56,106 bases of DNA from NCBI GenBank assembly GCA_035255945.1, contig DATEZA010000280.1, positions 1-56,106 of the forward strand, read 5' to 3'. The stretch comes from Thermoanaerobaculia bacterium (GTDB lineage Bacteria > Acidobacteriota > Thermoanaerobaculia > Gp7-AA8). Numbering within the stretch: the first letter of the stretch is position 1; each line of letters begins with the position of its first letter. The notes beneath the pieces were generated by a model that was not told where the DNA came from, searched no databases, and saw nothing but the letters and a program-made list of their open reading frames with translations. This document shows, in pieces, positions 32,931-37,222 of the stretch. A program made the position numbers and the translations under genes.

Positions 32931-33305
32931 ATGGAAAACGGCAAGCGCCCGCTTTACGACTGTTCGAAGTGCCCCGCTTACTGCTGCAGTTACGAGCGGA
33001 TCATCGTCAACAAGCGCGACCTCGCGCGGCTGGCAAAGCACTTCGAGATCGACGTGGAGACGGCGCGCCTGCGTTTCACGAAAGTCGTCGAGAAGGAACA
33101 GGTCCTCCGTCATCAGAAGGACGAGATCTACGGCTCTGTTTGCATGTTCCTCGATAAGAAGACGCGCCGCTGCACGATCTACGATGCGCGTCCCGGCGTC
33201 TGTCACGAGTACCCGGACTGGTCGCGCTGCGGCTATTACGAATTTCTGAAGTGGGAGCGCCGTCAACAGGATGATCCAGACTTCATCCCGCTCAAGCTCG
33301 GCTGA
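32931..33305 (+). CDS. YkgJ-family cysteine-cluster protein
   Basis: CSKCPAYCC, CMFLD...CTIYDARP.VC..YP. Confidence 0.9.
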   Translation: MENGKRPLYDCSKCPAYCCSYERIIVNKRDLARLAKHFEIDVETARLRFTKVVEKEQVLRHQKDEIYGSVCMFLDKKTRRCTIYDARPGVCHEYPDWSRCGYYEFLKWERRQQDDPDFIPLKLG

Positions 33306-33348
33306 GGCCGCTGAAATCGCGTCCGCGCGACACACTGTTATTTGCAGC

Positions 33349-34320
33349 ATGTTGTACCGCGGTATCACTCTGTTTCTTCTCGCCCTGCTCCTCGCGCCGT
33401 GTCTCCTCGCGCAGGACCAGTCCTCATCACAGCATCTCGACGAGAACGTCTCCGTCGGATACGTGATGATCCCGTTCACGGTCCTCGGCAGGCACAGCGC
33501 CCCGATCACCGATCTTGACGCGCGCGAGGTCTCGCTGCTCGTCGACGACGTGCCGGTCAAGAGCGACATGTTCGAGAAGTCGATGGATGCGCCGGTGTCA
33601 TTCACGATCCTCGTCGACGGCTCCGGCTCGATGGCGCTCTCCGGCAAGATGGAAGCGGCCCGAGCGGCGGTCGAGGCGCTGATCGCGGGCCGCAAGCCGG
33701 GCGACGACTTCTCGCTCTTCGTCTTCGATGCGACCGAGGCGCACGAGATCGTCCCGTTCACCGACAACCCTCAGACAATTCTGACGGCGATGTACGGCAT
33801 CAAGCCGTGGGGCAAGACCGCGTTCTTCGATGCGGTCTCGACCATGCCGGAGAAGAGCCGGCTTGGGCGTAACCCTACACGGGCCATCATTTTGCTGAGT
33901 GACGGCATCGATAATGCTTCGACGCTCACCCGTGAGCAGCTCTCGAGGACTCTCGAGGGTCTCGGTATCCCGATCTATTCGCTCGGGTTGCGTGAAGCGG
34001 CCGAGGCGAAGCTGATGACGGGACAGACGGCGGAAGCGTCGTCGGACATCGCCCTGCTCGAGGATGTGGCGACGCAAACGGGTGGCCGTCTCTTCCTCGG
34101 CAACCGTCCGGAGCAGCTCGGAAAGGCAGTCGACCGTATCGAAAACGATCTGCGGGCCCAGTATCTGATGGGCTTTACTCCCACTGGTAAAGGTGCTGTA
34201 AAGTACCGCCGCATTTCGCTGAAGGTCGCGGGGCGAGTTCAGGCAGTCCGTGTACGCGCGGGGTATCGCGGCACCGAGCCCCCGGTTCTTACTAAAGCGA
34301 ACGAAAGGAAAAGAAGTTGA
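33349..34320 (+). CDS. VWA-domain protein (Acidobacteria-type)
   Basis: Signal peptide; VDGSGSM MIDAS, TAFFDAV, IILLSDGID, IYSLG, TGGRLF, QYLMGF. Confidence 0.9.
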   Translation: MLYRGITLFLLALLLAPCLLAQDQSSSQHLDENVSVGYVMIPFTVLGRHSAPITDLDAREVSLLVDDVPVKSDMFEKSMDAPVSFTILVDGSGSMALSGKMEAARAAVEALIAGRKPGDDFSLFVFDATEAHEIVPFTDNPQTILTAMYGIKPWGKTAFFDAVSTMPEKSRLGRNPTRAIILLSDGIDNASTLTREQLSRTLEGLGIPIYSLGLREAAEAKLMTGQTAEASSDIALLEDVATQTGGRLFLGNRPEQLGKAVDRIENDLRAQYLMGFTPTGKGAVKYRRISLKVAGRVQAVRVRAGYRGTEPPVLTKANERKRS

Positions 34321-34967
34321 TGAGAATCGCAGCCAAGGTATCCCGTGTCCTAACGGTGTCCTTCGTGGCCGGAGCACTCGCAGCCGGATGCGCCACGAAC
34401 AAGGACGTCGACCGGAAGATCGCGGAAGCGACCTCCCAGTCCCAGGCGACCACCAATCAGAAGATCGAGTCGGTGGCGTCGCAGGTGGAGCAGGTTCAGC
34501 AGCATCAGAAAGAGCAGGACGCGCAGCTCGCGACCCTGAGTCAGGAAGCGAAGGACGCGCTCAAGCGCGCCGAAGACGCAGGCATCCTCGCCAAAGGCGC
34601 CGGCAAGGTCGTCTTCGAGCAGACCTTCTCGGACGATAAGGTCAAGTTCAAGAGCGGCAAGTACGACCTCAGCAAGGACGCGAAAGCAGCTCTCGACGAC
34701 CTCGGCAACAAGCTGAAGGGGATGGTCGAGAAGCAGTACTTCGTCGAGATCCAGGGTCATACGGATGACACCGGCGGCACGCGCTACAACGACGAGCTCG
34801 GCCAGCGCCGCGCCGACGAAGTGCGCCGCTACCTCTCGCGCCAGTACGGCGTTCCTCTGAACCGCATGTCGACGATTTCGTACGGCGACACGCTGCCGGT
34901 CGCGCCGAACAAGACCCGCGCCGGACGCTCGCAGAACCGCCGCGTCGTGGTGGTCGTGCTCGAGTAG
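34320..34967 (+). CDS. OmpA/Pal-family lipoprotein
   Basis: LAAG-C lipobox, coiled coil, EIQGHTD, N..LGQRRA..V, SYG..P, NRRV. Confidence 0.93.
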   Translation: MRIAAKVSRVLTVSFVAGALAAGCATNKDVDRKIAEATSQSQATTNQKIESVASQVEQVQQHQKEQDAQLATLSQEAKDALKRAEDAGILAKGAGKVVFEQTFSDDKVKFKSGKYDLSKDAKAALDDLGNKLKGMVEKQYFVEIQGHTDDTGGTRYNDELGQRRADEVRRYLSRQYGVPLNRMSTISYGDTLPVAPNKTRAGRSQNRRVVVVVLE

Positions 34968-34973
34968 TTTCTC

Positions 34974-35330
34974 CTACGCAGCGTTTGCACTCGGGCCGGC
35001 GTTCGCGCCGGCCTTTTTTGTTGCGAGCCCGAGGAGAAGGCCGACGGTGGCGGTCGCGAAAAGCGTGATGTGCACGGGACCGCCTTGCACGGCCCGAATG
35101 CCATAGACGAGATGCGCGACGAACTCCACTGCGACCGGCGCGAGCATCACCGAGAGGATCGCGAACGCGATCATGGTCTTCATTCGATACGCGAGAACCA
35201 GCGCCGCCACAAAGATCACAATATCGACGATCGCGCCCATGATCCAGTCAGTGTGCAGGTGAAGTTTCGTCGTTATGAAAATGAGCGATGCCGTAATGGC
35301 CAGCGGGATCAGATTCCGGATCATTCGCAT
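34974..35330 (-). CDS. Small 4-TM membrane protein (118 aa), candidate bacteriocin immunity factor
   Basis: GGAG RBS overlapping the upstream TAG; four hydrophobic segments; non-host codon usage. Confidence 0.7.
   Translation of the reverse strand: MRMIRNLIPLAITASLIFITTKLHLHTDWIMGAIVDIVIFVAALVLAYRMKTMIAFAILSVMLAPVAVEFVAHLVYGIRAVQGGPVHITLFATATVGLLLGLATKKAGANAGPSANAA
34994..35019 (+). terminator. Intrinsic terminator of the OmpA gene
   Basis: GGCCGGC-gttcgc-GCCGGCC followed by TTTTTT. Confidence 0.85.
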
Positions 35331-35340
35331 GATTGAGCTC

Positions 35341-35969
35341 CTACTCGCAGGCGCCATTACAAGGTTTTTCCCAGAACGTTCCGCAGCCGTCAGGCGTAAA
35401 CACACAGCGGAATACGCGCCTGCAAACTTCAGGACATGTCGGCCAGATGCAACACCAGTCGGAGTCCGTGCTGCACTCGCATTCAAATACGGTCGAGATT
35501 GCATGAAACTTCGTATTCATCGACGGCGCGAGCTGCAGCGCCCCCAAGCGCTGAAATACGAACTTGTATGTGACCGGATCAAATGCGGCTTTGCCATCAG
35601 CATCAGTCGCAGCAGCGGCTGATTCACCCGGGAATCCCACTGTGCGTCGGAGGGGCTTACGTCCATGATCCCGCTGTACAGCAGACCCACGGCCTGAAAA
35701 ATCACGGCACGCTGGCCGGCTGTCAATTCGGGATGTTCAGCAAGATATCGCTCGAGTTGCAGAAGCCACAAATCCGTTTTCAACTGCGGCGTGAAAGCCG
35801 CGAATCGATGTTTCACGCTGGCTACGTCACGCGCAAGCAGCTCATCGTACTTGGACTCCACGGTTGCCCGATCCCCGTGAAGAAGAAATGGCGAATGCCC
35901 CTGCCCACATAAGGTCGATGCGAAGCCTGAAACAATTGCGATCGCAAGACACAGTCGGGAAAACCTCAT
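35341..35969 (-). pseudogene. Fulvocin C-related bacteriocin precursor, split by a 1-nt frameshift near 35598 (real or sequencing error)
   Basis: Signal peptide and helical pro-region (KTDLWLLQL..L....ELTAGQRAVI) in ORF 35517-35978; Cys-rich tail CECSTDSDWC...CVFTPDGCGTFWEKPCNGAC in ORF 35341-35640; AAGGTG RBS before ATG 35969. Confidence 0.85.
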
Positions 35970-36011
35970 ACTAGACACCTTTCCGTTACTATTTCCGGCA
36001 TGACCTACGTC

Positions 36012-36040
36012 AACATGGCGTGTATTGAGCCGCCTGTCAA
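36012..36040 (-). promoter_or_regulatory. Putative sigma70 promoter of the bacteriocin cassette
   Basis: TTGACA, 17 nt, CATGTT on the minus strand, ~40 nt upstream of the start codon. Confidence 0.4.
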
Positions 36041-36105
36041 TGGATTGGATGTCGGTTTATGCTGTCGCAAAATGCGCAAACTGCTCGTTTTCGTGTTCGC
36101 CACAG

Positions 36106-36475
36106 ACCGGCTTCTACAGCGATCCGTATTCCGACTACGGCCGGCTGCAGAGCGACATGGTCCGCGCCATCCGCCTCGTCGTCGACACCGGCATCCACGC
36201 GAAGAAGTGGACTCGTCAACAAGTTGTCGATTACTTCCACGCGCATTCATCGACTGACGAGCCGACGGTGCAGATCGAGACCGATCGCTACATCGCGTGG
36301 CCTGGGCAGGCGCTCGGCTACAAAGTCGGCCAGCTCGAGATCCTGCGGCTGCGCGCGAAAGCGGAGAAGGAGCTCGGGCCGAAGTTCGACCTCAAAGAGT
36401 TTCACGATGTGGTGATCGGCGCGGGCTCGATTCCGCTCGATGTGCTCGCGCAGCGCGTCGACAACTGGATCAAGA
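36106..36475 (+). pseudogene. DUF885-family C-terminal remnant
   Basis: GFYSDPYSDYGRL...RAIRLVVDTGIH..KWTRQQ, ETDRYIAWPGQALGYKVGQL, FDLKEFHD, G.IPLDVL; no start, and no stop before it runs into xth. Confidence 0.85.
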
Positions 36476-37222
36476 CTACGAAAACGTCGCCACCACCGGC
36501 GCGTGATCGCTCGTGCCGGTTTCGCGCAGCGACGGACACGACACCGCGCGCGATGCGAGCGATTGCGATGCGAGCACGTAATCGAGGCGCCAGCCGATGT
36601 TGCGCTGGCGCATGTTCCGCCACGGCGCCCACCACGTGTAGTAATCGTCCGCGCCGGGATAGAGCCTGCGGCCGACATCGTCGAGTCCCTGCGCGATCAG
36701 TTTCTCCAGCAGGTCGCGCTCTTCCTGCCGCTGTCCGATGATGTTCGGCTTGCGCTCCTTCGGATGCACGTCCATGTCGGTGCGCGCGATGTTCATGTCG
36801 CCGCAGAGCACGAGCTTCGTCCCGTCCTTCTGCACGTCGGCGGCGTAATCGATCAACTCGTTCAGGAACGCGATCTTCGCCGCGTAATCCTTGCCGCCGT
36901 TCGGGACGTACACCGATGCGAATACCGTGTCGCCCACGCGCGCCTGCACGATGCGGGTCTCGTTGTCGAAGTGCGGATGCGAGAACTCCGGCGGCGTCTG
37001 TGCGGAGTCGAGCCGGATGTGCAGACCGACGCCCGAATATGCAGCGGCGCCATGCCAGTAGCACTTGAAGCCTTCGAGATCGCAGATGTTTGCAGGGATT
37101 TGCGCGGGTGATGCCTTCAATTCCTGCAGGCAGATCACATCCGGCTGTTCGCTCTGCACGAATGCTGCAAATTGCTCGTGTCGTGCGCGAATGCCGTTGA
37201 CGTTCCAGGTAGCGACTTTCAT
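36476..37222 (-). CDS. xth: Exodeoxyribonuclease III / AP endonuclease
   Basis: ATWNVNGIR, CLQELK, YSGV, SVYVPNG, GDMN, WRLDY, SDHAPV. Confidence 0.96.
   Translation of the reverse strand: MKVATWNVNGIRARHEQFAAFVQSEQPDVICLQELKASPAQIPANICDLEGFKCYWHGAAAYSGVGLHIRLDSAQTPPEFSHPHFDNETRIVQARVGDTVFASVYVPNGGKDYAAKIAFLNELIDYAADVQKDGTKLVLCGDMNIARTDMDVHPKERKPNIIGQRQEERDLLEKLIAQGLDDVGRRLYPGADDYYTWWAPWRNMRQRNIGWRLDYVLASQSLASRAVSCPSLRETGTSDHAPVVATFS

What the first reader, a model, noticed from the sequence alone, without database searches (positions are those of the whole stretch)
34974..35345. Coupled 4-TM protein as candidate immunity partner of the fulvocin-like gene
Seen in sequence: it starts 10 nt after the bacteriocin stop, its GGAG RBS overlaps that TAG, it shares the foreign codon usage, and it has four hydrophobic segments. 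Its tail runs through the host ompA terminator, suggesting the insert edge is near 35020. Established: small membrane proteins downstream of bacteriocin genes often give immunity. Inference: a two-gene toxin/immunity cassette. I am not aware of a described immunity factor for fulvocin-type peptides.
Basis: partly seen in the sequence, partly recalled or inferred. Interest (0 to 1): 0.65.

Follow-up and report, generated by a model that had tools for sequence, protein, structure and literature searches.

The report
Membrane partner gene of fulvocin-like bacteriocin
This is a real gene for a small four-helix membrane protein of an unnamed family that repeatedly sits just downstream of fulvocin-type bacteriocin genes in soil Acidobacteria, so it is a credible but untested immunity partner, here left beside a toxin gene that is broken by a frameshift.

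Summary
The ORF 34974-35330 (minus strand, 118 aa) is a real gene. It has four hydrophobic helices, dN/dS is 0.19 against a 74-75% identical relative, and the AlphaFold model has pLDDT 89. It starts 10 nt after the stop of the fulvocin-like gene, GGAG overlaps that TAG, and its tail runs through the ompA terminator.

- Its GC3 (0.76) matches host genes, not the fulvocin-like gene (0.61).
- The variable segment ends at the 4-TM start codon, not near 35020. Fulvocin-less relatives (L005, L081) keep the 4-TM gene at the same ompA/DUF885 site, behind the same 5' leader that precedes the fulvocin-like gene here.

The partner idea still gains comparative support. The protein belongs to an unnamed family, "family A", with no Pfam, NCBIfam or PDB match. 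Seven of 22 loci with known context lie 10-51 nt downstream of a fulvocin_rel gene on the same strand. An unrelated 4-TM family ("B") holds that position for another fulvocin clade.

The fulvocin-like gene here is frameshifted in all ten independently assembled contigs.

Best reading (about 0.5): a membrane immunity protein kept after the toxin decayed. Nothing has been tested functionally. Earlier notes from this scan reported membrane-thioredoxin partners of fulvocin-type genes on other DNA, but not this family.

The parts
34974..35330 (-). 4-TM gene (118 aa, P0001), a member of the unnamed 'family A'. Conserved residues in P0001 numbering: R49, E69, H73, Y76-G77, Q82-G83, P85, H87, G97, G101.
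35331..35343 (-). Junction TAGGAGCTCAATC: the stop codon of the fulvocin-like gene (35343-35341), GGAG (35341-35338) and the 10-nt spacer before the 4-TM ATG.
   Evidence: An equivalent junction, TGAGGAGAACCCC-ATG, is found at L068.
35341..35640 (-). C-terminal piece of the fulvocin-like gene, the 10-Cys domain. It matches NF033852 positions 66-150 at 50.9 bits.
35517..35969 (-). N-terminal piece of the fulvocin-like gene: Sec-type signal plus helical pro-region, ATG at 35969. It is in a different frame from the C-terminal piece.
35581..35621 (-). Frameshift zone. Homology to the family leaves one frame after ..VNQPLLRL and resumes in the -1 frame at DADGKAAF... The sequence is identical in 10 independently assembled contigs.
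35972..36079 (-). Shared promoter and 5' leader region (TTGACA box at 36040-36035; ..TAGTAACGGAAAGGTGTCTAGT before the ATG). In the fulvocin-less relatives L081 and L005 the homologous region sits directly in front of the 4-TM start codon.
36072..36498 (+). DUF885 pseudogene. The start codon and about 11 codons are kept. About 1.35 kb is deleted internally, and the 3' part (36103-36498) matches residues 460-588 of an intact homologue.
34993..35014 (+). Intrinsic terminator hairpin of the convergent ompA-family gene. It lies inside the 3' end of the 4-TM ORF.
   Evidence: conserved in L005
34317..34967 (+). OmpA-family lipoprotein gene, convergent with the 4-TM gene. The two stop codons are 6 nt apart.

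Best explanation
The ORF encodes a 118-aa inner-membrane protein of four helices. The positive-inside rule suggests that both termini are cytoplasmic and that the conserved loop YGI-x-AVQGGP-x-H faces the periplasm (inference).

It is the second gene of a two-gene operon, read from one promoter and leader. The first gene encodes a Sec-exported fulvocin C-related precursor with a cysteine-knot domain.

The most likely role is self-protection (immunity): it would block the mature peptide at the periplasmic face of the producer's inner membrane.

In this organism the toxin gene is frameshifted while the membrane gene is intact and under purifying selection. The locus therefore looks like an intermediate between a producer (intact pairs such as L068) and a 'resistant non-producer' (L005 and L081, where the toxin ORF is missing exactly and the membrane gene sits directly behind the same leader).

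Shown: the gene is real, its family exists, the linkage recurs, the leader is shared, and the frameshift is reproducible. Inferred: co-transcription, topology, immunity, and the direction of change (loss rather than gain).
For: 1. Real gene. dN/dS is 0.19. The family has 56 cluster representatives. The AlphaFold model has pLDDT 89.4 and four helices.
2. Recurrent linkage. In 127 genomes of the order, 17 family-A loci were found. Six of them are immediately downstream of a fulvocin_rel gene on the same strand. A metagenomic pair, L068-L070, adds a seventh. These lie at about six different genomic sites. With 1-5 fulvocin_rel genes among roughly 4,500 genes per genome (my estimate), about 0.01 such adjacencies would be expected by chance.
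3. Linkage is scattered over the family-A tree: 6 changes, no fewer than in shuffles. It therefore does not trace to one inherited arrangement.
4. An unrelated 4-TM family B (hhalign probability 0.7%) holds the same position at 7 loci. Partner type clusters on the fulvocin tree: 6 changes against a shuffled mean of 11.0, matched by 0 of 200 shuffles. This is what cognate toxin/immunity pairs would show.
5. The same leader precedes the fulvocin-like gene in the window and the 4-TM gene in L081 and L005. At a second site the breakpoint again falls at the 4-TM ATG.
6. Toxin genes decay while the partner stays intact. This is seen in the window and at L037 and L043.
7. The 4-TM gene evolves faster than its flanks. 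dN is 0.18 against 0.04-0.10 at this site, and 0.16 against 0.03-0.06 at the second site.
Against: - No functional data exist, and no homology to any known immunity protein was found.
- Fifteen of 22 family-A loci have no fulvocin gene next to them. Two genomes with family A (G089, G092) have no NF033852 match at all.
- No remnant of a fulvocin gene is detectable upstream of the stand-alone copies.
- The family keeps an invariant polar set (E69, H73, Q82, H87). That looks more like a catalytic or ion-binding site than like a fast-evolving binding protein.
- Nineteen of 31 fulvocin_rel genes examined carry neither 4-TM partner. Some have other partners: a membrane thioredoxin or a ClpX-type zinc-finger protein.
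- Related genomes share labels, so the counts overstate independence.
Confidence: 0.5

Rival explanations
1. The 4-TM protein is a dedicated partner of fulvocin-like proteins, but not an immunity protein. It would be an accessory for maturation, membrane docking or release. One example would be an intramembrane Glu/His hydrolase that cuts the long pro-region from the Cys-rich peptide.
For: - The linkage evidence is the same as for the best explanation.
- E69 and H73 (one helix turn apart), Q82 and H87 are invariant or nearly so. That suggests chemistry rather than mere binding.
- Other fulvocin_rel genes carry a clear maturation-type partner, a membrane thioredoxin.
Against: - Most fulvocin_rel genes lack any family-A or family-B gene, so the protein cannot be generally needed for biosynthesis.
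- An accessory would be useless without its substrate. Yet the gene stays intact under purifying selection next to a frameshifted toxin gene, and stands alone in 15 of 22 loci.
- No match to the Rce1/CPBP family or any other protease family was found by sequence or fold.
Confidence: 0.2
2. The 4-TM protein is an ordinary resident membrane protein with a function of its own. Fulvocin-like ORFs merely tend to lodge between a promoter and the first gene of small transcription units, so the adjacency has no functional meaning.
For: - The gene is present without a fulvocin gene at the same site in relatives and at a second site.
- Its GC3 is host-like, whereas the fulvocin-like gene has lower GC3 in 9 of 11 pairs.
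- Most loci are stand-alone, including a paralogue in this genome at G000:C108.
- The polar motif is conserved.
Against: - Seven adjacencies at about six sites, all with the same polarity and with short spacers carrying a Shine-Dalgarno sequence, are far more than chance.
- The same holds for the unrelated family B.
- Partner type follows the fulvocin clade.
- No mechanism is known that would insert a promoterless ORF exactly at a start codon again and again.
Confidence: 0.2
3. The ORF is a chance open frame in G+C-rich DNA and is not a gene.
For: It is short, overlaps a terminator at its 3' end, and has no database name.
Against: - dN/dS is 0.19, with differences mainly at third codon positions.
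- It belongs to a family of 56 cluster representatives with conserved motifs.
- The structure model is confident.
Confidence: 0.01

Closest known systems
Integral-membrane immunity proteins of pore-forming colicins and microcins (for example the colicin A, E1 and Ia immunity proteins, about 110-180 aa with 3-4 TM helices; recalled from general knowledge)
   Same: It is a small polytopic inner-membrane protein encoded right beside the toxin gene. Stand-alone ('orphan') copies occur. Size and helix number are similar.
   Different: No sequence or fold similarity was found. The gene lies downstream on the same strand and is translationally close-coupled, unlike the opposite-strand arrangement of pore-former colicin immunity genes. 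The toxin is a Sec-exported cysteine-knot peptide, not a colicin. Protection has not been tested.
CPBP/Abi (Rce1-like, Pfam PF02517) intramembrane proteases that act as bacteriocin self-immunity proteins in Gram-positive bacteria (recalled from memory; a lead only)
   Same: It is a membrane protein next to a bacteriocin gene, with conserved Glu and His residues in or near transmembrane helices.
   Different: PF02517 gives no match even at E<=1. No Rce1 structure appears among the Foldseek matches. The protein has four helices in 118 aa, against 6-8 in that family. Its motif is E-x3-H ... Q-G-x-P-x-H, not EExxxR / FxxxH / HxxxN.
Fulvocin C of Myxococcus fulvus and NCBIfam NF033852 'bacteriocin fulvocin C-related protein' (Hirsch 1977; Tsai and Hirsch 1981, as cited in PMC8708641)
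   Same: The upstream gene matches NF033852. The partner studied here is defined by its linkage to that family.
   Different: The searchable literature describes no immunity or accessory gene for fulvocin-type peptides: 14 papers mention the word and none deals with immunity. The gene in the window is split by a frameshift.
Membrane-thioredoxin partners of fulvocin-type genes
   Same: It is a polytopic membrane protein encoded a few bases downstream of a fulvocin_rel gene.
   Different: That partner carries a periplasmic AhpC/TSA-type thioredoxin domain with CxxC. Its membrane part is unrelated to family A or family B (hhalign probability <=0.2%). P0001 has no cysteine at all.

Membership tests
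Bacteriocin immunity protein (functional class) | Encoded next to, and co-expressed with, the toxin gene | tested here: met
   The spacer is 10 nt with GGAG. The leader is shared with fulvocin-less relatives. Adjacency recurs in 7 of 22 loci.
Bacteriocin immunity protein (functional class) | Protects the producer, or a sensitive strain, against the cognate toxin | not testable with these tools
   This needs a protection assay.
Bacteriocin immunity protein (functional class) | Specificity: partner type follows toxin type | tested here: inconclusive
   Partner family (A, B or none) is clustered on the fulvocin tree: 6 changes against 11.0 in shuffles. However, deep branches are weakly supported, relatives are not independent, and within family A no congruence between the two trees could be shown.
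Bacteriocin immunity protein (functional class) | A working toxin gene in the same locus | tested here: not met
   The fulvocin-like gene is split between two frames. The split is identical in 10 independent contigs.
Family A (unnamed 4-TM family defined here, alignment A5) | About 113-135 aa, four TM helices, and the motifs A-x-R, E-x3-H-x2-YG and VQG-x-P-x-H | tested here: met
   P0001 seeded the profile that recovered the family and carries all the motifs. The most distant linked member, L016_dn, matches the profile at 98.9% probability.
CPBP / Abi (Pfam PF02517) | Match to the family profile and its three motifs | tested here: not met
   No Pfam match at E<=1. No PDB sequence or fold match.
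Any curated family (Pfam, NCBIfam, PADLOC) | Profile match above the curated cut-off | tested here: not met
   The best Pfam hit is AGTRAP at 17.1 bits, against a cut-off of 25. NCBIfam and PADLOC give none.
NF033852 fulvocin_rel (the neighbouring gene) | Full-length match in one reading frame | tested here: not met
   Profile positions 4-43 and 66-150 are matched by two different frames.

The most novel reading that the evidence does not exclude
Families A and B are the missing immunity determinants of fulvocin-type bacteriocins. Soil Acidobacteria of this family would then cycle between producers (toxin plus immunity), decaying producers (frameshifted toxin plus immunity, as in this window) and resistant non-producers (toxin ORF excised exactly, immunity gene left behind the same promoter). 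That would be a natural rock-paper-scissors series captured in metagenomes.
Probability: 0.4. Interest if true: 0.65.

Novelty: new variant of a known kind. Interest (0 to 1): 0.55.

Why it matters
Fulvocin C was described more than 40 years ago, and its relatives are annotated in many genomes. I found no description of an immunity or accessory gene for them.

This finding names a specific candidate family of small membrane proteins, plus a second unrelated family in the same position. It also supplies intact toxin/partner pairs that could be cloned, and conserved residues (E69, H73, Q82, H87) that could be mutated.

The with/without alleles at two conserved sites, and the reproducibly frameshifted toxin gene, give a concrete case for studying how bacteriocin producers turn into resistant non-producers in uncultured soil bacteria.

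Tried and rejected
- My first reading was that the fulvocin gene arrived with a deletion of the 5' part of DUF885, so that the 4-TM gene was an unrelated resident. This rested on the 755-bp contig L005 and on GC3. I dropped it. The longer contig L081 shows that the DUF885 start and the intergenic leader are still present upstream of the fulvocin gene, and that the DUF885 damage is a separate internal deletion. Fulvocin genes also have lower GC3 than their partners in 9 of 11 pairs.
- Homology of P0001 to the 4-TM family B was rejected (hhalign probability 0.7%). Homology to the membrane part of the thioredoxin partner was also rejected.
- The search for related loci with alignment A5 failed because no stretch was conserved enough. 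With the narrower alignment A6 it found nothing, in genome contigs or in metagenome contigs.
- A scan of a 400-genome sample of the phylum found family A only in the window's own genome. That sample held just 7 genomes of the window's family, and only 10 candidates per genome were scored.
- A search for remnants of fulvocin genes upstream of stand-alone 4-TM genes found nothing significant.
- Sequence and fold searches against PDB gave no usable match.
- The promoter scan found no consensus sigma-70 site. The conserved TTGACA box is my own reading.
Ten independent assemblies were used instead.
- Programmed -1 frameshifting was considered. No slippery heptamer is present at 35581-35621, and other split fulvocin genes break at different positions. 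It is therefore judged unlikely, but it is not excluded.

Full report
**Observation**

On the minus strand an ORF runs from ATG 35330 to the stop at 34974-34976 and encodes 118 aa (P0001). The upstream Cys-rich ORF ends with TAG at 35343-35341. Ten bases separate that stop from the ATG, and GGAG (35341-35338) shares its first G with the TAG.

Hydropathy gives four hydrophobic segments. An AlphaFold model built on 27 homologues is confident (pLDDT 89.4, pTM 0.77) and shows helices 7-22, 29-49, 53-76 and 84-110.

The terminator hairpin of the convergent ompA-family gene (34993-35014, plus strand) lies inside the last ~14 codons.

**Is it a gene?**

Yes. Against a 75% identical homologue from a metagenome contig (L005), substitutions fall 20/18/56 on codon positions 1/2/3 and dN/dS is 0.19. 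Against L081 the value is also 0.19.

A profile search of 1.84 billion cluster representatives found 56 proteins at E<=1e-3. Most are 113-135 aa long. They share A-x-R at the end of helix 2, E69-x3-H73-x2-Y76-G77 in helix 3, and Q82-G83-x-P85-x-H87 in the loop before helix 4.

Nothing in Pfam, NCBIfam or PADLOC reaches threshold, no PDB sequence matches, and Foldseek against PDB gives no hit better than E = 3. I call this unnamed group family A. Source names are 'hypothetical protein', from MAGs labelled Thermoanaerobaculia.

Family A occurs in 15 of 127 genomes of the window's order, all of them in the window's family. It was not found in the two same-genus genomes. In a 400-genome sample of the phylum it was found only in the window's own genome.

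**The neighbouring gene**

NF033852 (fulvocin_rel) is matched by two ORFs in different frames:
- 35517-35978 matches profile positions 4-43.
- 35341-35640 matches profile positions 66-150.

With a full-length profile built from relatives, one frame aligns through ..VNQPLLRL and the -1 frame picks up at DADGKAAF.., which places the break within 35581-35621.

The exact protein P0001 is on record on 13 contigs. The ten I fetched come from at least nine sequencing runs and one NCBI MAG. All are 100% identical to the window over 34900-36200, or over the part each contig spans (eight of the ten reach the break zone), and so carry the same break.

The frameshift is therefore a property of this population and not a one-off assembly error. 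There is no slippery heptamer at the break. Split fulvocin genes in other genomes break elsewhere. I read it as a broken gene.

- GC3 of the 4-TM gene is 0.756, and 0.775 in L005. That is like VWA (0.763), ompA (0.857) and xth (0.815), whereas the two fulvocin pieces have 0.61-0.62.
- The edge of the variable DNA is not near 35020. A 9.3-kb contig of a fulvocin-less relative (L081, 4-TM protein 74% identical) carries CxxCxxCC-VWA-ompA, the convergent 4-TM gene and an intact, divergently transcribed DUF885 gene of 598 aa.
- The window aligns to L081 continuously from 32946 to 35318, that is, through the whole 4-TM gene.

**The shared leader**

Window 35972-36079, just upstream of the fulvocin start codon (ATG 35969), is homologous to the stretch just upstream of the 4-TM start codon in L081 and L005. 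The stretch includes a TTGACA box and the string TAGTAACGGAAAGGTGTCTA a few bases before the ATG.

The difference between the two alleles is therefore exactly 'fulvocin ORF plus 10-nt spacer' (35331-35971), set between one leader and the 4-TM ORF. The damage to DUF885 in the window is a separate event: the start codon at 36072 and about 11 codons remain, about 1.35 kb is missing, and the 3' part (36103-36498) matches residues 460-588 of an intact homologue.

The region varies further among relatives. A same-genus genome has ompA directly followed by xth, and another genus has ompA directly followed by DUF885.

**Comparative test of the partner idea**

NF033852 hits 31 of 127 genomes of the order. 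Cross-tabulating those places with the 17 family-A places, and rescanning the loci with my own profiles, gives six family-A genes immediately downstream of a fulvocin_rel gene on the same strand:
- the window;
- G099:C10;
- G147:C249;
- G131:C1;
- G107:C47 (here the 4-TM gene itself is split);
- G004:C14.

Metagenome contigs add a seventh (L068-L070). Spacers are 10-51 nt, each with a good Shine-Dalgarno sequence. L068 has TGAGGAGAACCCC-ATG, closely matching the window's TAGGAGCTCAATC-ATG.

Fifteen loci stand alone, including a paralogue in this genome (G000:C108).

The L068 site repeats the window's pattern. Relatives have esterase, 4-TM, MBL hydrolase and nitroreductase. L068 has esterase, fulvocin (201 aa), a 10-nt spacer and then the 4-TM gene. 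The breakpoint falls within two bases of the 4-TM ATG.

On the family-A tree the linked state is scattered: 6 changes, no fewer than in shuffles. Linkage therefore does not trace to a single inherited arrangement.

**A second partner family, and other partners**

Seven further fulvocin_rel genes are followed at -19 to +90 nt by a 124-146-aa 4-TM protein of another family. This family B carries the motif GGAALI..RG..IF.PY and is unrelated to family A (hhalign probability 0.7%). Family B also has many stand-alone copies, 15 of 22.

On a tree of 31 fulvocin proteins, partner type (A, B or none) needs 6 changes against a shuffled mean of 11.0, and 0 of 200 shuffles are as low. Deep branches are weakly supported and relatives share labels.

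Other fulvocin genes are followed by a membrane thioredoxin (L025) or by a small protein with ClpX-type zinc fingers (L018, L021, L027). The membrane part of the thioredoxin partner is unrelated to family A or B.

**Rates and composition**

The 4-TM gene diverges faster than its flanks. Between the window and L081:

| Gene | dN | dS |
|---|---|---|
| 4-TM | 0.18 | 0.95 |
| ompA | 0.04 | 0.47 |
| VWA | 0.10 | 0.50 |

At the second site dN is 0.16 for the 4-TM gene against 0.03-0.06 for its flanks. This fits either exchange of the module by recombination or a gene-specific rate.

Fulvocin genes have lower GC3 than their 4-TM partner in 9 of 11 pairs. The GC3 gap in the window is therefore typical of such pairs and does not show separate origins.

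**Interpretation**

Several facts argue for a functional tie between family A and fulvocin-like proteins:
- same-strand, closely spaced linkage recurs at several sites;
- an unrelated 4-TM family sits in the same position;
- partner type correlates with toxin clade;
- one leader is shared by the pair.

Several facts fit an immunity protein better than a biosynthetic accessory:
- most fulvocin genes lack such a partner;
- the partner persists intact beside a dead toxin gene, both here and for family B at L037 and L043;
- the partner often stands alone.

The positive-inside rule places R2/R5, R49/K51 and K105/K106 in the cytoplasm and the conserved loop in the periplasm, where a Sec-exported peptide would be met (inference).

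Against this reading:
- nothing has been tested;
- the invariant E/H/Q/H set looks like a catalytic or ion-binding site;
- two genomes have family A but no fulvocin_rel match;
- no toxin remnants lie upstream of the stand-alone copies.

I put immunity at about 0.5, another dedicated partner role at 0.2, and incidental adjacency at 0.2.

The direction of change at this site is not settled. It could be loss of the toxin ORF in L081 and L005, or import of the module into the window's lineage by recombination. An exact excision from an operon is mechanistically simpler than inserting a promoterless ORF at a start codon.

**Novelty**

The kind of system, a small membrane immunity gene beside a bacteriocin gene, is well known. 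The family is unnamed, and the searchable literature describes no immunity or accessory gene for fulvocin-type peptides.

Earlier notes of this scan describe membrane-thioredoxin partners of fulvocin-type genes on other DNA, and one cassette with an out-of-frame toxin gene. None describes this family.

Noticed in passing
window 36072-36498 (+): DUF885 pseudogene. The start codon and about 11 codons are fused out of frame to the last ~130 codons. About 1.35 kb is missing compared with the intact 598-aa gene of L081.
   Followed up: yes
L017, L022, L026, L028, L036, L037, L043 (downstream of fulvocin_rel genes): A second unnamed 4-TM family ('B', 124-146 aa, motif GGAALI..RG..IF.PY) is closely coupled to another fulvocin clade. 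In the order, 15 of its 22 copies stand alone.
   Followed up: partly
L018:1173-1451, L021:2009-2353, L027:1162-1437: One fulvocin clade is followed within 40 nt by a 91-114-aa protein with two ClpX-type C4 zinc fingers (PF06689). This is a cytoplasmic-looking partner of unknown role.
   Followed up: partly
L025:2023-2937: A fulvocin_rel gene is followed at +21 nt by a 304-aa protein with about 5 TM helices and a periplasmic AhpC/TSA-type thioredoxin domain with CxxC. This is the partner type that earlier notes of this scan reported on other DNA.
   Followed up: partly
L037, L043; also G017:C166, G128:C44, G061:C67, G096:C100: Several other fulvocin_rel genes in MAGs of this family are split into two frames or interrupted by a stop, at different positions. 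Where a downstream 4-TM gene is present it is intact.
   Followed up: partly
G000:C330:5378-6022 (L001:1306-1950): The genome has a second, intact fulvocin_rel paralogue of 214 aa. It has no 4-TM partner; a convergent 158-aa gene follows it.
   Followed up: partly
G000:C108 (L009:1507-1854, minus): A stand-alone family-A paralogue of 115 aa, 31% identical to P0001, lies between a GGDEF/EAL gene and a divergently transcribed gene.
   Followed up: partly
L013 (G002), L014 (G004) versus window 34967-36476: The interval between ompA and xth is a variable spot. A same-genus genome has nothing there. Another genus has DUF885 plus a 360-aa gene (tentatively GDSL-type by eye, not checked), with neither the 4-TM gene nor a fulvocin gene.
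   Followed up: partly
L050 (G105) upstream of its stand-alone 4-TM gene; window 36041-36029 (minus): The 13-mer ATTGACAGGCGGC, which contains a -35-like TTGACA, precedes both a stand-alone family-A gene at another site and the window's fulvocin/4-TM pair. This may mean the promoter travels with the module, or it may be chance.
   Followed up: no
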